64,000 nt of DNA, from positions 35,774,001-35,838,000 of the forward strand of contig OX597821.1 in assembly GCA_951406725.2 (NCBI GenBank), written 5' to 3'. Under the pieces are notes generated by a model. That model made no database searches and was not told the DNA's origin. It was given only the letters and a program-made list of their open reading frames with translations. Shown here one piece after another: positions 16,451 through 56,860 of the stretch; positions within the stretch are counted from its first letter, which is position 1, and each line of letters begins with the position of its first letter. A program made the translations under genes and the position numbers. Source of the stretch: Octopus vulgaris. Lineage: Eukaryota.

Positions 16451-16830
16451 CCATCAAAATGCAGAGACTTAATCAATGGCTACAGCTATACTTCTTGGAC
16501 ACGACTTAACGTTGATCACGACGTTGATATAAGCATACATAAGATTTTCACTATTCTATTTAAGACCTCACTAGCTTTTTCCATCGACACTCCCCAACGG
16601 GCATCTGGGCTATTTCTCTCCTTTTTATAATAAGATTATTTCGATATTGTTTTTTTCTTTCTTTTATTATTTTTTTTTATCTTATTTATTCAACATCATT
16701 TGAATTCCATGTTTAACTGAATATTGTTAGCGGCTTAGTTTTCTTTCACGTGTGGTATATAAACTCCTGAATTTCACCAGTATTATCGTTTAAACAATTG
16801 CTAGGTTATGTTCCCGTAATTCCTTTATAT

Positions 16831-17073
16831 AATAATTGCAGCGTGAAAGGTGTTTATAAGCCATTTAAGAAACACGCTAAAACCGTTAGATTCACTTCAA
16901 CATTTAAATTTAATTTGCCTAAATATTTTCGTCGCTTTGAGACCGCGATCTGTTCACTGACAAAATTCTGTGCTGCATCTCGGAGCCCATTCAAATTTAA
17001 ATGTTGAAGTGAATCTAACGGTTTTTATGTGTTTCTTAAATGGCTTATAAACACCTTCAACGCTGCAATTGTT
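16831..17073. mobile_element. Fold-back element (~80-bp arms) enclosing a hammerhead-like motif with GTGAACA core (16912-16967, minus strand)
   Basis: Arms aattgcagcg...cttcaacatttaaattt and aaatttaaatgttgaag...cgctgcaatt. The spacer reads aattttgtca-GTGAACA-gaTCGC-ggtctcaaa-GCGAc-GAA-AATATT-T-aggcaaatt. Confidence 0.75.
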
Positions 17074-17648
17074 TTCGTTCCAGCACACGATCTCAGAAAA
17101 GGTCACTTGCTATGCAAGTACATCTCCATAATAACATTTATATAATATTCTCACCAATTACAGTTTACTCTTCAGCCATTACACTTGTTGGCTCACCCCA
17201 TCCTCACACATGCCTTTTGTGTTTTCAATATTTTTTTCACTCTTTGTATTTATTGTACATTTTTCTCACTAGATATACTGTTTAACAGAATTTTTTTTAC
17301 TTAGTCATTCACCTTTCCAACATATTGTAACCAACAATACTGTCATACCTAGAGACTCCAAACGTCAGGACCTTAAACTTATCTCCAAACAAAATGATTA
17401 TATCATACAAGCACTCACCCACTCCTCCTCTCTACCTAACTTTTTCCTGTAGAGCCGCATTCCTATCTGGATCCTAAACATTTTTCTTTTCCAATAAATT
17501 TTGGCCTCTATTTTTTACATATTCATTCTGTTCTCTTTTGTGTTTGTTGAAGAACAAGTGTCCAGAACAAAAGACTCCTTCTTTTTTTTGAAACGTTAAA
17601 ATAACCATACCACTGTTAAAACTCGTTCCACTCGTTTTGTGTTCGTAA

Positions 17649-18788: not shown

Positions 18789-19311
18789 TAACTAAAATTT
18801 TTTATTCGCTTTTTGTAGTGAGAGAATGTGTAAGTGAGTGACAGAGAAAAAGCAAGAGAGAGAGAGAGACGTTATGTATGTATGTATGTATGTATGTATG
18901 AATGTATGTTTCTATGCATATATGTATGACTGGTTTCAGTGACACACACAAACACGCACGCACGCAGGTTGTTATGTATGTATGTATGTATGTATGTATG
19001 TATGTATGTATGTATGTATGTATGTATGGCTTTGGCTGACTGTCATCCTCAACTCTCCTTGTTGCTAGCGAAATGGTATATGCCGGCTGTGTGAGCAACT
19101 GGTTGTTTTAATGGGGGAATTCCATTAGAAAAAGTTTTAATCGATTTTCTCGGTAACTGTGGAGGCTAGAAAAAAAATACAAACCGCATTCCAATCTATG
19201 CACCCATCTCCACATGTGTGCCATTTCTCACGCGAATCCACAGCCGTTTGGCTGTGATCCTCAAGACAAGAAAGAATACAACGATCGCCCATGTCCAATT
19301 TCTATTATAGA
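18124..19311 (-). mobile_element. Non-autonomous Helitron-like element
   Basis: Minus strand begins A|TC and ends with hairpin CCGGgtgaaaCCGG then CTAG|T. No TSD. Confidence 0.7.
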
Positions 19312-22300
19312 TTAATTGTATTTCGGCTGGAGTTCTTCCGTTACACTTCTCTGACCTCATCAGTGGTTCTTTGCTTTCTTCTTTCTTTTTTGTGTGTCTC
19401 TCCTTACTAATAATCTGCCAGTTTGTATTCCTATTGCATATGTCTTTATATGCGCATGCGTATAGCCCTGTGTGTGTCTATATTTCGTGTGTGGGTGGGG
19501 GATGTGCCTGCATTATCAGTATCCCCTTTTTATACACGTTCCTTTAATGTACTTTTATTTATTTTATTCATATGTTTATATCTACTCACTTTTTCTTTAC
19601 TTTCTATTTAAACATAACAACAACACGAGCGACAACAGCAATATGAGCAACAATAACCGCAGCATCAACAACAACACGAACAACAACAACAATCACAACA
19701 ACAATACGAACAACAATGTTTCTTTTTGTATTAATTTGAGTTAATTTATTTTGTTAATGTACATAGTTATTTAATTCTATTTATTTATCTGTGTATTGTA
19801 TTATATTCATATTATTATCAGTTTATGGGGATCTTATTCTCTCTTAGATTGTAGTGTGTTGGGGTGTGTGCCAGTGTTCCATTCTAGTTTCCTGTTCAGG
19901 CTAGGTTTATCTTCTATTATGTGTGTAGCTTCCATAATTTCTCTAAACGTTGCGTCTGTTCTATGTGTGGACAAAATTTTAACTTCTATATTGTTGAGTG
20001 AGCCCCCGTGTTCCTGCTCGGCGTGCTAGTACAGAACCCATGAGCTTTTCTCTTCCTTAAGTTCCCTTAAGCTCATGTACCCACTCCCCTATGCTCCGTT
20101 CTTTTTCCCCTACGTACGTCGTTGTCTTGTTACTGCACTGTCCCTCTGTAAATCTTATACTATAAACTACATCCCTAGCTTTACAGTTTGTTTGTGGGCT
20201 AAATCTATATACAATAAAGTCCCTATCAGTACAGAGGGGCTCTACTAAAACGGTAGGTTCTACCGATTAGGGATTTGATAGGGTCACCTGGCCTTTCTAC
20301 AAACTTAATTCTTAGCTTAAGTATGTCTAGGGCTCTTCTAAAGTGGTACGTCAGTTCGCCTCTAGGGGTGGTTTCGACGAACATGACACTCCGATATTTG
20401 TGGCTATCATACCATTAGTTGGTCTTCCCTATTTTCTTCTTAGTCCTTTCAAAGGTGTTCCATGATTTGCTCCAGTAGAGTGGGCAAATCCCATTCCTAT
20501 CGTTAAGAAGGATAGTTTCAAATTTCCTCATGGCTCCTTTGTATACTCTGATCCTTTCTCTATGGCTGTATCCTGAGAACTGCATGCGGTGAACGAAGTA
20601 TTGTATGTGTGTCTTTAACTCCGTAGAGTTACATGTGCGGGACACATTTCTCATTACTCTGATGAGGTCTGCCATCAATGTATTGAATTTGGCATTGTCC
20701 GCAATAGCTGAAATTCCAGTGAATCAGGTATTTGGAGGCCATAGGTTTGGCATAGTGTGAGTGAATGATTTGGGTTTTATTACTCATAGTTTCAAGCCAG
20801 ATTTCTATATCTAGTACTGGTAGTCTATGGTTAGGGTGTCACGTAGGGTAGTCTATCGGGACCTTAATACACTGGTGGATGGAATTAAGTATTTGCTGGA
20901 TGCTCTCCATAGTATTAATTTCTATTTCTATTTCTATTTCAAGAGTACTCTCTTGTGGGGGTGCCTTTTCCACTGTGTTGATATTATCAACATAGCGAGA
21001 GTACATGAGTATGGTGTTCGGTGTCAGACGTTCTTTAAGCCTTCTGTCCCACCATACCATGAAAAGGTTGGTCACATCACCGATGGCTGCCCCTTCATCC
21101 TGGGCGTATATTTTGTTAAACTTAAACGAGAGGCCTTTTAGGGTAACTCTTATACTAGTTCCTAGTGCATGTGCGATCATTTTCTTTACTGGATATTTGT
21201 TTTCGGTGGTCTGTATGGCTCTGGTCCATCCCCTCCATCTCTCTATAGGAGTCTTCCTAGCCATAGATGTAATTGTGGGTGGTCTACCTCTTAAATGTCT
21301 ACTGAGGAAGAAACTTCTAAAGCCATGTTTGTCTAGGTATTCATTGTCATATGTCAGTCTAAGTAGGAGGCCCAGTTCCTCTGTGTTGACATTGCGGAAC
21401 TCCACTTCGCTCTCGCTGATCATCTCCACGCACTTCTCCACCACAAAATCCACGTCGATCGATGGGTGTAGGCATACCACATCCATGCTTCCCACTATAC
21501 ATCCTGTCAGGTCGCAGGTGTTGCTACAGTTGATTCAGCGCTGTCACAAACATCAGGTGACATCTGGATTATGGGCCGTAGGATCATTGAGAGGAAGTAG
21601 GATATCCTGTAGTTGCTAGCGATATTCGATCCACAGACTGGTCTTGTTGGTGGTTACGCCACTGGATCTGTGGTTAATTTGTAGTCCTTGCAGAGTGTCT
21701 ACAGCGTCGGAATATCATTGTTCCAGACTTGGAAATTGTTGGCCGTTCATTTCTGAGGTCCAAGAACAATTACCAATATCATCATGTGGGCGTTGAGGAC
21801 TTTTTATATCTCCTCATGCGCCTGTAGAGTTGTTACTTTCATATTGGCGATGTGAGGTTGCATTGCCTGGATGTAGTTCCGCAAGCTGCCTATCGACAAC
21901 CTGCCGGACTTATCTGTGGAAAAGTATGCCACATCTCTGTTCCTCCACCGCTACATGAGCTTACGTAGGCCACACTCGGGCATATTCCCGAGATTTTGGG
22001 CCTCTGTCTTATTCTGTCTCTTAGTGTATAGTTCTAAAATCGAAGTTTGGTCCTATCTATAGTGAATTGTGCTTCCAAGTGGTCACTAATATATCTTGGG
22101 ATGCAGACCCTCATGCTGTAAGATTTGTCACATATGGTGCATTGGGTGTCAAGGGGGTGGGTATTCTTGTTGTTGGCCCTTCTAGTGTTATCTTCGTCAC
22201 TACCACTACCATTACTTACTGCTACAAACCATCAACCACACTACCACAGCCACCACTAACTCCACCACCACCACCACCACCACCACCACTGCTACCACCA

Positions 22301-36643: not shown

Positions 36644-37924
36644 ATGGAGGCAGTTGAATGCAGATCAGTGGTAGGGTTCTTATATAGGGAAAGTTTACGA
36701 AAAAAAAAACCAAAAGACGAAGACAGGTTGTGTACAAAACAAACATGTATTAGTATAACGCTCAGGAATAGAAAAAGTCTTTTACGTTTCGAGCCTACAC
36801 TCTTCTACAGAAAAGGACATAGAAAAAAGGAGAGAAACAAGGAGAGAAAAAATGTGTAGTGGCTAACGATCTATCATGGAAAAGAGACTTTCGATGTGAT
36901 GAAAGAAGTTTATGGTGACGTTGTACTATCATACGACATAGTCAAGCATTGGTCTCGCCAGTTCAAATGTGGTCAGACATCAGTGAAAACTACTCTTATT
37001 CCTAGACGAATACTTTCTACCATTGAGGACGACACCATCCATAAAGTGGAAGCCGGTATTTTGGAGGATGACCAAATAACCATTCGGCAACTAGCCCAAG
37101 AAGTGAAGATAAGTGTAGGATCCGCGGAAAAAAAAGCATGCACGACTATTTGTACATGCGGAAGGTGCTTGCACGATGGATTCCACGGATGCTCACCCCA
37201 TTTCAGAAGCCGGAACGGGTTAATTGCTCCCAGGATCTTTTAGCAATATCCCAAGAAAACGGTAGACTTATCACAGAGGATGAAATATGGGTCCATAACT
37301 ATGATCCTGAGACTAAATTCTAGTCGAAGCAACGTAATTATTTTAACTCACCAACTTCATAAAAGGCTCATGTCCAGCCCACAGCAGGCAAGATGATGCT
37401 CATAATCTTCTGGGGCCAGGGTGGAGTAGTGATGATGGATTTTCTGTCAAAGGGCACCATAATTAACGGGGCATATGATATTTCACTGCTGCAGAAACTG
37501 CGGAACGCTATTAAAGCAGAGAAGGATGGCATGCTTACCAAAGTTGTCCGCCTCCTCTATGACAACGCCCCATTCACAATGTGCATGTTGCCCAGATGAA
37601 AGCAACTCCTGCGATTATGAATTCCTTCCTCCTCCCCCTTACTCTCCTGACCTTGCACCATCTGACTTCCCAACCATGAAGTCTTCTTTGAAGGGGAAGC
37701 ACTTTTCAGATAATGATGAACTTATTTACGAGATAAAGTCTTGGCTCCAGACACAACCTACTGACTTCTACAGATGAGATCTTTACAGCTGCATAAAATG
37801 ATGGCAGAAGTGTGTCACCATCGGTTGTAGTTATGTATAAAAGGAGTAATAACTATACCAAGTTTCGTTTATCCTAGTCCTTGGGAAGTGGATCAGAGCA
37901 AACCTTTAATGAACACCCTTCATA
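36644..37924 (+). mobile_element. Decayed mariner transposon (DD34D transposase pseudogene)
   Basis: MKEVYGD, WIPRMLT, ITEDEIWVH, YDNAP and PPYSPDLAPSDF with frameshifts. The right end reads ...aatgaacacccttcaTA. Confidence 0.9.
36695..36880 (-). mobile_element. pLTR-like insertion inside the mariner ORF with a hammerhead-like motif (CTGTAGA core) at 36777-36818
   Basis: Minus strand: gtcctttt-CTGTAGA-aGAGtgtaggCTC-GAAAC-GTA-aaagac. It interrupts the transposase between FLYRE and ETFDVMKEVYG. Confidence 0.65.
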
Positions 37925-42267: not shown

Positions 42268-43659
42268 CTATCCGTTTTCTTTAGGGGACCAAAAACGTAA
42301 CAGAAATTTAGTCACATGTGGGCATGATCCGAAAAGTTCTGTCCTTGTATTTAGACATGTGGTAGGGTCTAAGCTGCTTTTCCAGATAAGCCATCTCTCC
42401 ATGTCGCATAAACCGCACCTTCCGCTGCCGTTAGTATAGGGCTTACATCTGGCCAAAATCTTCCATTGTATGTTATAATCGACACCTTTATCTCTTAAAG
42501 ACCAAATATGATTGGATAATTGTGTCGCTTTTCTTTTGTTCCAGTGCCTAAAGCTCAAAGTGTGGTTATTGAACCTGGCCTTGAAATTACCCTCTGTCAG
42601 GCCCACGTATTTCTTCGTCGAAACGGTGTCTTTAGTGGTTATAGAGTTTACGGTAGCTTCATATATGATGGTCTTGGACATGCAAGCTCCATTTAGCGGG
42701 CACAATTCTTTATTCCTGCATGAACAGCTGTTTTCTTCTTGTGTTTTTTGTATGTTATGATTGATTATGTTTTTAAAATTGGTAGTTGAACTAAAACTAA
42801 TTTTTAAATTGTGTCTATTGAAGAGTTTCCTATAAGCATGGTTAACTGGAAAATGTCTATCTATCAGTGCTAGGAAATATTTACCTATATTGAAGGCCAC
42901 CTCGGGTGAGTAAGGGGGCGTAAACCAGATGACCTTCCTATTTCTATTATTCCTTTTCCTTATTGTTGGGCTGGTGATAGGTGTATATTTTATTTTTTCG
43001 CTAAAACCACTATCTTTTAAAGCTTTATTATAAACTGGGGCAACGCTATTGAAGATGTCCTCATTAGATGAGAGGCTAGAAATCCTCTTACTAATATTTT
43101 TAACTAAATTTTTGAATACTATAGGGGGATGGCATGAACCTACATTAATATAACTTAGTCTATCATTGGGCTTCCTATAAGGCTTATAAATATTATTATT
43201 AAGATCTAAGGAAACGTCTAAGAAATTGACAACCGTCAGGTTAGTGTCTATAGTTATACTAAGTCCGAAGTGTTTCATTAACTGGATAATATCCTTCCTA
43301 AAACGATCTTGTGCTGGTCCATTTGTATTAGCTGTTAAGGCGAGGGCATCATCTTTGTAGATGGCGAAATGTACGTTAGGGAATGTCTTACCGAAGGTAT
43401 CTAGGAGAAAGAGTCCAATTAGATCACAGATGCCTGCCCCATCATATGAACCCATGCTCACATCGAAAGCGCCCTCCGTGTCGGTGTTTTTTACCCACTT
43501 TGCATTCTCACTGAAAAGTAATGTCTTTCTAGCATGGAAGATTATATCCTTATCATTGGTACTAATTTCTATGAAGTCACTAGCGAAGATTAGGGCTTTA
43601 TCTAGCAGTTCTTTAGAGATAGAGGCATAAAAATCAACAATATCGAATTGTGTAAACCT
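42268..43659 (-). CDS. Penelope-like retroelement RT + GIY-YIG endonuclease, 5'-truncated but uninterrupted (464 codons including stop); Naiad-like
   Basis: FDIVDFYASI, DVSMGSYDGA, YKDD, VNFLDVSLDL, YRKPND, SCHPP, CSCx5C linker, IIY...YVGLTE..FKARF..H and CGLC. The frame stays open upstream of the listed Met to 43659. Confidence 0.92.
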   Translation of the reverse strand, partial: RFTQFDIVDFYASISKELLDKALIFASDFIEISTNDKDIIFHARKTLLFSENAKWVKNTDTEGAFDVSMGSYDGAGICDLIGLFLLDTFGKTFPNVHFAIYKDDALALTANTNGPAQDRFRKDIIQLMKHFGLSITIDTNLTVVNFLDVSLDLNNNIYKPYRKPNDRLSYINVGSCHPPIVFKNLVKNISKRISSLSSNEDIFNSVAPVYNKALKDSGFSEKIKYTPITSPTIRKRNNRNRKVIWFTPPYSPEVAFNIGKYFLALIDRHFPVNHAYRKLFNRHNLKISFSSTTNFKNIINHNIQKTQEENSCSCRNKELCPLNGACMSKTIIYEATVNSITTKDTVSTKKYVGLTEGNFKARFNNHTLSFRHWNKRKATQLSNHIWSLRDKGVDYNIQWKILARCKPYTNGSGRCGLCDMERWLIWKSSLDPTTCLNTRTELFGSCPHVTKFLLRFWSPKENG

Positions 43660-49681: not shown

Positions 49682-50848
49682 ATATAAAGTATAGAACTGT
49701 TTTCCAAATATATCCAATTAAATACATTGAATACGACATGACTGCTGTGGTTTTATGCCTAAATAAGTCACTCAGACTCCTGCAATGACTTGGTTGCTGG
49801 TTTCTTTTAATGCAATGAATTTCGTGTATTTTCGATCCCATACTTACCGCTAGACGCTCTGGTTTTGCATCACCAGAGCTGTTTCTGCAGTGCTTTCAAA
49901 AATCTTATAGGCTACCTAAACCAACTGGTCCAACATGCGCATATATAAAAATCAATTGTTAATCTTCCTGGAAATTTAAGTCTTTTGAAAAGACGGCTAA
50001 CGGCTTCAGAAGAGTGATTCCTTCGAGATGCACGGTTTAAAATGTTACGTACTCTTTCGAGTAGCGGTTTAATATTTCAATAGTAATAGATAAATTATAC
50101 AGTAAACCTTCACTTGTTACGTTTATAGTTTGGCCATTGATCACTACATGTGGTAATTTAACTGTAGACAAAATAACTCTGATATGAATACACTCGTATA
50201 TACATATATGTTTACAGTTTTATGAGGTTCAGAAAAAATTGACACATCATTTAAGAATAGTTCTAGTGATGACTCTCGGTAATTCAATTGCTAAATTAGC
50301 ATTTTCATACCATTTTTTTCTTTTGCGTATGATGATATCTAGTTGTACTCAATAAGTTGGGGACGACGGGATCTGTTTGTCACATCCTAGATATAATGTA
50401 TGTCATTTTACATGAATTTTTTAATTATTATATCATTAAGGGTTGCACAGAAATTCAACGTACGTGTAAGAATTTAAGTAATACGCGTATCAGTATAGGC
50501 ACATTTCCTTGAAGGTTTAATTTCCCCAGAATAAAAAAAAATATTTCCAATACATTTATGTCAAAACAATACTCCAGTACTTTGCATAAAATACGTCCAA
50601 AACTGCTTCTTCAACCAAATGCATACTATACGAAAGCCCAAAATGCTAAAAGCTATTGCTATACAAAGTGATTGTCTCTTATACTCTTTTGAGTGATCAT
50701 TGGAGATGAAAATAGGGAAATTAATTACATTAATAAATTTGATAGCTAGTAGTTTTAAAATTGGTTTTAGTAAATACCTATCAGAATAAATATTACGAAT
50801 ACTTTTTTCTGAACTGTAGTGAATTTGTATTTTTATGTGTTCTACTAG

Positions 50849-51016
50849 CGGTCAGCGTAATGGATAAAATGGATGATAATATCAAGCCTTGTAGTGATTT
50901 TTGGAAATATTCCTGCGGTGATTTTATCGAAAGACACCCGGTTTTCGCATTTCAAAATAATACCGTCTATAGCAGCTTTAGCGAAGTTGCTGTAAGAGTA
51001 AGTAGAAGACTATTGG
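50849..51016 (+). CDS. M13 peptidase exon (AVSVMDKMDDNIKPCSDFWKYSCGDFIERHP...RRLL)
   Basis: ctag|CG...TTG G|gtatgt, 168 nt, phase 1-1. MD..I.PC.DF..Y.CG matches the M13 N-terminal signature (MDxxxxPCxDFxxYACGxW). Confidence 0.92.
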
Positions 51017-51037
51017 GTATGTATTGTCGTTTAATAT

Positions 51038-51459
51038 TACTTCTCTCTTACTCTTTTACTCTTTTACTTGTGTCAGTCATTTGACTGTGGCCATGCTGGA
51101 GCACCGCCTTTTTTAGTTGAGCGAATCGATCCCAGGATTTATTCTTTGTAAGCCTAGTACTTATTCTATCGGTCTCTTTTGATGAACTGCTAAGTTACGG
51201 GGACGTAAACACACCAACATCGGTTGTCAAGCGATGTTGGGGGGACAAACACAAGCATATACACACATACACACACACATATATATACATATATACGACA
51301 GGCTTCTTTCAGTTTCCGTCTACCAAATCCATTCGCAAGGCTTTGGTCGGCCTGATGCTATAGTAGAAGACACTTACCTAAGGTGTCACGCAATTGGACT
51401 GAACCCACAACCATGTGGTTTGTAAGCAAGTTACTTACAATACAGCCACTCCTACACCT
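51038..51459 (-). mobile_element. Full-length tRNA-derived SINE ~20 nt downstream of an M13 exon donor; a second SINE relic follows at ~51470-51680
   Basis: Similarity to 10153-10590 and to 46859-47091, respectively. Confidence 0.88.
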
Positions 51460-55019: not shown

Positions 55020-56860
55020 TAATTCGCAGACATATTTTGATAATGCTGTGGAAGAATCAGTAAGTTCCAACCAATCCTGCTCGCTGCAGATGCAGTAATT
55101 TTTCATTTATCTCAGTGTTTTCAATTCGGTTTGTGCGCTCAGTGTTAGTGGTATCAAGCACAGTACAAAGATCAGTGGGGACAGGCAGTCCCCTTGGAAG
55201 ATGCCTCTCCTGATTTCTACTGTCCCTAAGCTTCTCTCGTATGCTGTCAGATCCGTCCTCCAATTCACCATACTTTTTCCAAGCAATCGCTCAACATTCG
55301 ATGCAATACCAAATAGGTCCATACACTCCATAATCCAAGAATGTGGGATCATATTGTACGCCTTACGATAGTCGATCCATGACATGGCTAATTTACTTTT
55401 CCTCCTCTTGCAGTCTCTAAGTACAGTTTTGTCTATCAAGAGTTGATCCTTGGTACCTCTGAACTTACGCTTGCAAATCTTCCGCTCATGTGGCAGATCT
55501 CCATTTTTCCCAAATGTTCGTACATTAACTCTACGACTATTCCAGTCAATAACTTCCACATAACTGGCAAACAGGATATCGGCCTGTAATTGTCTACCGT
55601 ATTGCCTTTTTCGATGTTTTTCAGCCACAGTACTGTGCTAGACAATGCCAACCACTGTGGTGTTACTTGGCCGGCATTTAACAAGGTGTTGAGTTGCGTA
55701 GCCATCCGTGCATGAAATTCACCAAATCTTTTGGTCCAGTAGCCTTGAACTCCATCTGGTCCCGGGGCCTTCCTGTTGCTCATTTTTTTGCTGATTTCCT
55801 TCACTTCCCTAACTGAAATGACTAGTTCTGCCTGTTTTCGACAGACTACTGTTTGTTTCAGTTCTTGCAACCATTCAGCATTCTTCTTGTGCCCCTTCTC
55901 TTTGCTCTAGGTGTCACTCCACAACCTTTGACTTTCAATGTTATCTGGTATGAACTTTTCATCTGTACACCCTCCATTTATTTCTTTATAGAATCTCTTC
56001 TAATCTACTCTGAATAACCTATTCTTGTGGTAACCCTCCATTCTTTGGTCGCATCTTACCATCTTTGCTTTCTTTGCAACGATGCGCTGTTTCAGTTCTT
56101 CCGCTACTACTTTCAGTCCCTTTCTTTCAATATTATACTTCCTTTCCAGTGCCTTGTCTTTTTATTCTCCTTTCTCTTTTCGGTCTAATATAGAGATTTT
56201 TTTCGAGAGAATGTCTAACCCTGCTATGGATCTTTTCTTTTGCCATTCTCATTATGTTTCTTTTTCTTGACATCAACACCCACGTTTTTTGCTACAACAA
56301 TCCTTGCTGCCTTGATGAAATTATTTGTTTCTGTGATGTTGTTTGTTCTGATGTATTTCAGAATTTCATTGACATTTTTCGTTTCTTGGTTTAATTTCAA
56401 TCAATCAACATTTTAAGGTTACAAATAATGTCGCTATCTTTCTCCTGTAGTCTTACCTTTATTATGTCGTAGATTGCCATTTGTTTATCTGTCATGTCGC
56501 CATTAGTTTATTGTCTTCTTTTAGATCATCCATATGTCTCTCATCAAGTATATTATCATTCATGTTCCTTCTTTTTATTCACCACAACAATTTCTGGATT
56601 CCTATGTCTGGCCAGCTGATTGCACTGGATCATTACATCCCACATCATTTTGCAGTTCTCATTTTCAGTGACTCCTTCTGGGGTTTTCTCATACCACATC
56701 TTTGCTCTTTGAAGGCCGTTATTTCTACAGAGCCCCCAATGGATCATTCTTGCCACATCGTCATGGTGTCGTTTGTATTCACGCTGTGCCAATTTCGAGC
56801 ATTTGCTAACGATGTGCCATACAGTTTCACCCTGCTCACCGCACATTCTGCATTTGTCGT
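55020..56860 (-). mobile_element. Rearranged and deleted R4/Dong-like RLE LINE abutting (AAT)n
   Basis: [38 protein letters not shown] and [14 protein letters not shown] (RT). CRMC..ETVWHIVSKC and RNPEIVV (CCHC knuckle + RLE) lie at 56560-56860. Confidence 0.88.

What the first reader, a model, noticed from the sequence alone, without database searches (positions are those of the whole stretch)
16912..16967. Hammerhead with an apparently natural G3:C8 swap of the catalytic-core pair (GUGAACA)
Seen on the minus strand: aattttgtca-GTGAACA-gaTCGC(9 nt)GCGAc-GAA-AATATT-T-aggcaaatt. Stems I and II, GAAA and a palindromic stem III are all in hammerhead register, but the core is G3-U-G-A-A-C8-A rather than C3-U-G-A-N-G8-A. 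Established: C3 and G8 form a tertiary Watson-Crick pair, and the double swap can rescue activity. Inference: a compensatory double change points to selection for the active fold, and CUGANGA-based searches would miss this family. It sits in the loop of an ~80-bp-arm fold-back element.
Basis: partly seen in the sequence, partly recalled or inferred. Interest (0 to 1): 0.85.

Follow-up and report, generated by a model that had tools for sequence, protein, structure and literature searches.

The report
Swapped-pair hammerhead in Penelope retrotransposon
A jumping-gene family with over 6,000 matching copies in this animal genome carries a hammerhead-shaped RNA in which two normally fixed, paired core letters are swapped (C-G to G-C), while sister families carry C-G or U-A, so the pairing is likely kept by selection and the RNA likely still cuts itself, though cutting is untested and this window's copy is likely dead.

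Summary
The motif is real. It is the minimal type I hammerhead at the 5' end of an autonomous Penelope-like retrotransposon (PLE; RT plus C-terminal GIY-YIG). The 'fold-back' is an ordinary 5'-inverted PLE insertion. In the family's exact context 6,459 of 7,054 genomic matches are G3:C8 and none is C3:G8. The youngest ORF-bearing subfamily is G3:C8 throughout, and stems I and II are its lowest-energy fold. Sister families in the same genome carry C3:G8 (98 of 100 listed) and U3:A8 (91 of 100); 16 metagenomic relatives carry C3:G8 or U3:A8, so G3:C8 is derived. Against: this copy has lost G10.1 and the stem I closing pair; 223 copies are G3:G8, some with ORFs; sister families carry other core changes; copied RNAs run uncut through the cleavage site to a likely cap; one RNA-seq run shows no pile-up of ends. 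I found natural U3:A8 in print, G3:C8 only as a laboratory mutant (key papers were not held). This scan noted G3:C8 before in phage and other PLE-like DNA. New variant of a known kind; cleavage untested.

The parts
16914..16964 (-). Minimal type I hammerhead in family register (stem I 5' strand 16964-16958, 3' strand 16920-16914)
16951..16957 (-). Core G3-U4-G5-A6-A7-C8-A9 (G3 = 16957, C8 = 16952)
16931..16950 (-). Extra G after A9 (16950) and stem-loop II; G10.1 (16949) is mutated to A in this copy
16921..16930 (-). G12-A13-A14, palindromic helix III AATATT (A15.1 to U16.1) and U17 (16921), the predicted cleavage site
   Evidence: numbering by homology with PMC4209133
16980..16981 (-). Fixed 5' end of short copies: inferred transcription start (A, 16980) preceded by a G absent from long copies (16981), likely a copied cap
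   Evidence: G in 17 of 22 short arms; C in 5 of 5 long arms
16834..16980 (-). Arm 1: pLTR end of the PLE, from the inferred start to the first 3' end (about 31 nt into the ORF)
16862..16864 (-). Start codon of the parent element's RT-endonuclease ORF
16993..17131 (+). Arm 2: inverted, 5'-truncated copy that begins after the hammerhead and carries the 61-nt tail (17071-17131, ORF codons about 11-30)
16982..16992 (.). Junction filler between the two arms; its position varies among copies
16824..16833 (-). 10-nt AT-rich direct repeat also found at 17137-17146; likely target-site duplication

Best explanation
This is a decayed 5'-end copy of an autonomous Penelope-like retrotransposon whose hammerhead-shaped RNA carries a natural G3:C8 core pair, likely kept by selection, and which in intact copies likely self-cleaves slowly after U17 as a dimer or with help from the element's protein. 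Shown: the element, its ORF, the position of the motif, the fixed swap and the pairs in sister families. Inferred: transcription starts in the pLTR about 23 nt before G3; the hammerhead sits in the 5' leader, with U17 at +60 and the AUG at about +115; the RT primes at two sites inside the first 30 codons and copies back to the cap, giving the thousands of 150-205 nt arms; two cDNAs joined head to head give the fold-back. Inferred: the palindromic AAUAUU helix III pairs two RNAs; a cut would trim tandem or read-through transcripts or remove the cap, but most RNAs that were copied into the genome were uncut, so cleavage is slow or conditional and is not needed for each insertion.
For: Parent element: short copies extend upstream into a shared 3' UTR and a GIY-YIG ORF (Pfam GIY-YIG 25.4 bits, cut-off 22.6) and downstream into the ORF start (L231, L232). 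Fixation: 6,459 G3:C8, 223 G3:G8, 163 G3:A/T8, 209 not-G3, 0 C3:G8. All 13 hammerheads printed for the 8 young ORF-bearing loci L211-L218 are G3:C8. Stems I and II are the minimum-energy fold. Subfamily changes fall in loop II (4 of 9 positions) rather than stems and core (2 of 42; p 0.006). Sister families: C3:G8 in 98 of first 100 of 3,711, U3:A8 in 91 of first 100 of 1,804. Tree of 21 proteins: G3:C8 has one origin, inside a set that is C3:G8 (15 rows) or U3:A8 (3 rows). PMC11167929: single C3G or G8C kills a PLE hammerhead, the double mutant partly restores it, cleavage needs the protein, and RT starts at two internal sites. Extra 5' G in 17 of 22 short arms (p 4e-7).
Against: No cleavage was measured. 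G3:G8 copies are 12 times the control C-to-G rate (223 against 18), include ORF-bearing copies (L198, L199, L219, L221, L235) and fall on many branches (13 changes, at least 4 forced). The C3:G8 sister family has C at position 9 in 92 of first 100, and two other PLE families have changes at positions 4 and 6, so these cores tolerate change. Stems and core vary no less than the pLTR downstream (2 of 42 against 4 of 80, p 1.0). Arm 5' ends show no peak at the cleavage site (2 of 363 arms start at it, a biased sample). One RNA-seq run (about 6% read) shows no pile-up of ends, equal strands, and 91% of reads running on into unrelated sequence. Family E's place relative to B and D rests on about 90 N-terminal residues only.
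Confidence: 0.6

Rival explanations
1. The hammerhead fold, including the 3:8 pair, is kept for a non-catalytic job (pairing two RNAs, binding the RT, or controlling translation of the leader), and cleavage is negligible in the cell.
For: Copies read through the cleavage site to a fixed 5' end; no end pile-up in RNA-seq; catalytic-core changes in families A, B and C; PMC11167929 found uncut RNA to be the insertion substrate and no reads at the cut site; PMC4209133 reports low in vitro activity.
Against: A Watson-Crick 3:8 pair forms in the catalytic conformation (established knowledge); U4, G5, A6, A9, G12-A14, A15.1, U16.1 and a non-G residue 17 are all kept in this family.
Confidence: 0.25
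2. The motif is a relic: C3 and G8 changed one after the other by drift in a source element that no longer needed the ribozyme, and G3:C8 spread with that element.
For: G3:G8 copies with ORFs exist; conservation among TE copies reflects the source sequence only; stems and core vary no less than downstream pLTR.
Against: Two transversions landing on a complementary pair; at least three other lineages also landed on a complementary pair (family E; L250; L257/L261); loop II changed through several subfamilies while stem II did not; G8 is absent from the youngest subfamily (0 of 40 against 13 of 40, p 8e-5).
Confidence: 0.13
3. A chance hammerhead look-alike in the loop of a MITE or fold-back DNA transposon.
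For: 90-nt inverted arms; the window copy folds no better than shuffles; no Rfam hammerhead match.
Against: The junction varies from copy to copy, many copies have one arm only, and the sequence runs on into an RT-GIY-YIG ORF on both sides; orthologous canonical hammerheads lie at the same place in sister elements.
Confidence: 0.02

Closest known systems
Minimal type I hammerheads of metazoan Penelope-like elements (Cervera and de la Pena 2014, PMC4209133)
   Same: In the pLTR; extra nucleotide between 9 and 10.1; G10.1-C11.1; palindromic helix III; thousands of dispersed single copies; natural U3-A8 covariant reported in Schistosoma Cercyon.
   Different: G3:C8 core. None of the 56 representative motifs in its Figure S3 has G3:C8 (53 C3:G8, 2 U3:A8, 1 U3:G8 by my reading). 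The extra nucleotide is G, not H; stem I is 7 bp, at the long end.
PAc (Poseidon, Anolis carolinensis) hammerhead and tail (PMC11167929)
   Same: Hammerhead near the ORF start; two 3' ends inside the ORF start that give the tail; laboratory C3G/G8C double mutant partly active.
   Different: There G3:C8 is engineered; here it is the natural state. Here the whole hammerhead lies upstream of the AUG, and the protein has the CX2-5CxxC linker said to be absent in Penelope/Poseidon (PMC8557442).
Natural core variants in prokaryotic hammerheads (Perreault et al. 2011, PMC3088659)
   Same: Natural covariation of the 3:8 pair.
   Different: Only U3-A8 is named in the passages I read; different context and architecture.
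Non-LTR retrozymes (PMC7229834; bioRxiv 10.64898/2026.07.22.740005)
   Same: Short type I hammerhead-bearing repeats related to PLE pLTRs.
   Different: Retrozymes are head-to-tail arrays; these copies are dispersed single or inverted 5'-end fragments of an autonomous element.

Membership tests
Minimal type I PLE hammerhead | Literal CUGANGA core | tested here: not met
   GUGAACA in 6,459 of 7,054 exact-context matches; C3:G8 in 0. U4, G5, A6, A9 are kept.
Minimal type I PLE hammerhead | Watson-Crick pair possible between positions 3 and 8 | tested here: met
   G3:C8 in 91.6% of matches; G3:G8 in 3.2%
Minimal type I PLE hammerhead | G12-A13-A14-A15.1 and U16.1-H17 | tested here: met
   GAA-AATATT-T in the window and family
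Minimal type I PLE hammerhead | Stem I, stem II with G10.1-C11.1, extra nucleotide after A9 | tested here: met
   Met in the family; G10.1 and the stem I closing pair are broken in the window copy
Minimal type I PLE hammerhead | Palindromic helix III allowing a dimer | tested here: inconclusive
   AAUAUU is palindromic, but the predicted two-strand fold did not pair it
Minimal type I PLE hammerhead | Located in the pLTR of a PLE | tested here: met
Minimal type I PLE hammerhead | Site-specific self-cleavage after residue 17 | not testable with these tools
   RNA-seq lay gave no end pile-up but reads came mostly from embedded short copies
Rfam hammerhead families | Covariance-model match | tested here: not met
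   No match at E up to 1 or 10; canonical C3:G8 controls L260, L262 and window 19363 were missed too
EN+ Penelope-like element | Single ORF with RT and C-terminal GIY-YIG | tested here: met
   1,025-aa open frame in L211 (5'-truncated); GIY-YIG above Pfam cut-off; RT motifs read by eye, no Pfam RT hit
EN+ Penelope-like element | pLTR at both ends, 5' inversions, tail | tested here: met
Neptune or Nematis clade | Placement among named PLE clades | not tested
   CX2-5CxxC linker is present, but no named reference was in the tree
Non-LTR retrozyme | Head-to-tail array with a hammerhead in each unit | tested here: not met
   Among the first 100 of 6,459 places, close neighbours are on opposite strands only (read by eye); the rest were not listed
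MITE / fold-back DNA transposon | Fixed terminal inverted repeats around a fixed middle | tested here: not met
   Junction varies, single-arm copies are common, sequence is continuous with an RT ORF

The most novel reading that the evidence does not exclude
One genome holds a natural mutational series of a ribozyme's catalytic pair in sister retrotransposons (C3:G8, U3:A8, G3:C8) together with the broken G3:G8 intermediate, and the pair is held by selection although the RNAs that get copied are uncut and capped: the hammerhead acts as a conditional switch or RNA-pairing module in making the two-armed insertion, with arms that sometimes come from different RNA molecules.
Probability: 0.2. Interest if true: 0.75.

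Novelty: new variant of a known kind. Interest (0 to 1): 0.5.

Why it matters
The 3:8 pair was found by crystallography and confirmed by a laboratory swap; in the papers I could read, nature had supplied only the U3:A8 alternative. A high-copy, recently active family with G3:C8 completes the picture and shows that CUGANGA and UUGANAA descriptors undercount hammerheads. It bears on an open question, whether PLE hammerheads are selected for cutting: the sister families and the G3:G8 minority give ready-made natural test and control RNAs. The cap-like extra G and read-through of the cut site say something concrete about which RNA a PLE copies in vivo.

Tried and rejected
Rfam: no hammerhead match for the window or for 7 loci including canonical controls; uninformative about the swap. 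Folding the window copy alone: no signal. A separate non-autonomous element or MITE: rejected once the sequence was followed into the ORF. PLE families A, B and C as parent: rejected, each has its own pLTR. G3:G8 as one ancestral subfamily: not shown; the ORF tree leaves the base of the family open, the pLTR tree scatters G8, and inverted arms disagree at position 8 in 6 of 7 informative pairs (most of these loci were picked for G8). First run of the arm comparison was swamped by TA repeats; repeated. Sequencing runs: no listed holder was on record as RNA, which is no evidence either way; 14 runs hold half or more of the words, under five organism codes. No intact ORF of family E was found. 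21 of 37 metagenomic loci were left out of the tree (no recognisable motif, short flank, near-duplicate or a damaged core). Literature: searches found no natural G3:C8; Lunse et al. 2017 (PMC5785218), Hammann et al. 2012, Przybilski and Hammann 2007, Nelson and Uhlenbeck 2008 and Martick and Scott 2006 were not held, and file 1 of the PMC4209133 supplement was not searched, so priority is not settled. The host was not identified; 'octopus' in some paper searches was a guess.

Full report
Observation. The minus strand carries the motif as described, G3 at 16957, and it is the only such hit in the window. The inverted arms are 90 nt at 89%. The copy itself folds no better than shuffles and Rfam finds nothing.

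The family. The 321-nt element has 4,490 first-look candidates in the 2.8-Gb genome, 40 scored. An alignment of 30 copies gives the register: stem I TTTGTCA/TGACAAA, core GTGAACA, one extra G, stem II GTCGC/GCGAC, GAA, palindrome AATATT, U17. The window copy has G10.1 changed to A and an A-A mismatch closing stem I, so it is likely inactive. The junction between arms differs from copy to copy, many copies have one arm, and arms end at one of two places 61 nt apart: the tail and 5' inversion described for Penelope-like elements (PMC8557442, passages).

The parent. A few copies continue upstream. Following them led through a microsatellite-rich 3' UTR to a GIY-YIG ORF. A protein search gave 150 scored matches of 7,853 candidates, with many near-identical young copies. 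L211 has a 5'-truncated open frame of 1,025 residues with RT motifs read by eye and a GIY-YIG domain above the Pfam cut-off. In L231 and L232 the tail runs straight on into the ORF: the AUG lies inside the pLTR and the two 3' ends are about 31 and 92 nt into the ORF. This matches internal RT initiation in PAc (PMC11167929, first part of main text and passages). The window element is thus a copy of the 5' end of the parent's RNA. Of 78 copies picked only by the 19-base core context (80 fetched, 2 duplicates dropped), 27 reach the fixed 5' end; 17 of the 22 short ones have a G before it where all 5 long ones have C (p 4e-7). I read this as a copied cap (inference; cap copying by RTs and the initiator-like sequence there are recalled). 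These cDNAs run through U17, so their templates were uncut.

How fixed is the swap. Exact counts in one context: G3:C8 6,459, G3:G8 223, G3:A8 or T8 163, any non-G3 209 (90 of first 100 keep C8, counted by eye), C3:G8 0. All 13 hammerheads printed for the young loci L211-L218 are G3:C8, with a changed loop II and unchanged stems. For that subfamily stems I and II are the lowest-energy fold with the core open (z -3.66). Subfamily-level changes concentrate in loop II (4 of 9 against 2 of 42, p 0.006), but stems and core vary no less than the pLTR downstream (4 of 80, p 1.0).

Sister families. Family B, 57% identical in the C-terminal 560 residues, has the orthologous motif with C3:G8 in 98 of first 100 of 3,711 matches; an older B copy in this window (core at 19363, minus) has a fully canonical CTGATGA. 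Family E, related over its N-terminal 90 residues (46 of 88 to B, 41 of 87 to this family), has U3:A8 in 91 of first 100 of 1,804. Of 37 metagenomic relatives, 16 went into a tree, 13 with C3:G8 and 3 with U3:A8, assigned by script or by eye; none of the loci showed G3:C8. G3:C8 has one origin (support 100), this family is sister to B (99), and U3:A8 needs two changes (quick search, midpoint root). C3:G8 is therefore the likely ancestor, and each fixed change landed on a Watson-Crick pair.

Results against. G3:G8 is 12 times a control C-to-G change (18), occurs in ORF-bearing copies, and is scattered over the pLTR tree of 69 of 80 copies (13 changes, at least 4 forced, shuffles 23). It is missing from the youngest subfamily (0 of 40 against 13 of 40) and differs between the arms of one insertion in 6 of 7 informative pairs. 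I cannot say whether it is a surviving intermediate, side lineages or a recurrent change. Family B has C9 in 92 of first 100; families A and C have changes at positions 6 and 4. Only 2 of 363 arms begin at the cleavage site. In one raw RNA-seq run 1,312 reads were laid, both strands equally, 91% running on into unlike sequence, ORF depth 1-5, with no pile-up of ends; positions 3 and 8 were not among the 40 differences shown, 91 more were hidden. The two-strand fold did not pair the palindrome.

Mechanism. Most likely a slow, dimer- or protein-assisted cut after U17 in the 5' leader (+60, about 55 nt before the AUG), which would trim tandem or read-through RNA or remove the cap, and which is not needed for each insertion. 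The basis is homology: low dimer activity of PLE motifs (PMC4209133, parts 1-2 of 4 and supplement file 2 parts 1-2; PMC6765202 passages), and partial rescue by C3G/G8C with protein dependence (PMC11167929; PMC8495972 passage; PMC3884650 passages). Confidence: element identity about 0.97, hammerhead homology about 0.9, pair under selection about 0.8, cleavage about 0.6.

Novelty. Natural U3-A8 is in print (PMC3088659 passages; PMC4209133). None of 56 motifs in the latter's Figure S3 is G3:C8. Nine searches, the PMC8557442 supplement and passages of PMC7229834 and the first part of bioRxiv 10.64898/2026.07.22.740005 showed G3:C8 only as a laboratory mutant. Five relevant papers were not held, above all Lunse et al. 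2017, of which I saw only the reference. This scan has unchecked notes of G3:C8 in phage and in two other PLE-like loci with an added nucleotide; no look-alike by sequence. Verdict: new variant of a known kind, interest 0.5.

Noticed in passing
window 42271-43659 (minus) and 42065: Copy of a very young PLE family (92 scored matches at 99-100% identity; 717-aa frame; RWK and DKT motifs as in the Hydra clade of PMC8557442). Its hammerhead-like motif has C at position 4 and an extra U before GAAA.
   Followed up: partly
window 19300-21534 (minus): Decayed copy of sister PLE family B with a canonical CTGATGA core at 19363; the active family B has C at position 9 in 92 of first 100 matches.
   Followed up: yes
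window 36810 (minus); L151, L152: PLE family A: hammerhead-like motif whose core reads CTGTTGA in young copies (U at position 6); at least 11,689 first-look candidates for its RT.
   Followed up: partly
L239, L245, L363-L382: PLE family E with a U3:A8 core, 3-bp stem I and AATT palindrome; 1,804 exact matches; no intact ORF found.
   Followed up: yes
L110 minus 3072; L109 minus 468 and 944: Other hammerhead-like motifs: one U3:A8 with an ACGCGT palindrome, and two C3:G8 copies 476 nt apart with a long loop II.
   Followed up: no
L001-L090, L283-L362: Arms of one inverted insertion disagree at a stem I position in 7 of 14 informative pairs and at position 8 in 6 of 7, against 6% at ordinary sites; in L319 the arms seem to come from different subfamilies. 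Two RNA templates per insertion, or hot spots.
   Followed up: partly
G000 contig C16: Long, older copies of this family, many with G3:G8, are enriched on C16 (15 of 40 scored matches).
   Followed up: no
L247 about 120 nt after the ORF: Relative with a canonical C3:G8 core but an apparent U15.1-A16.1 swap; single contig, read by eye.
   Followed up: no
window 50746-51081, 36860-37240, 55110-55906: Weak Pfam matches: Peptidase_M13_N exon-like frame, Mos1-type HTH, and a non-LTR RT fragment.
   Followed up: no
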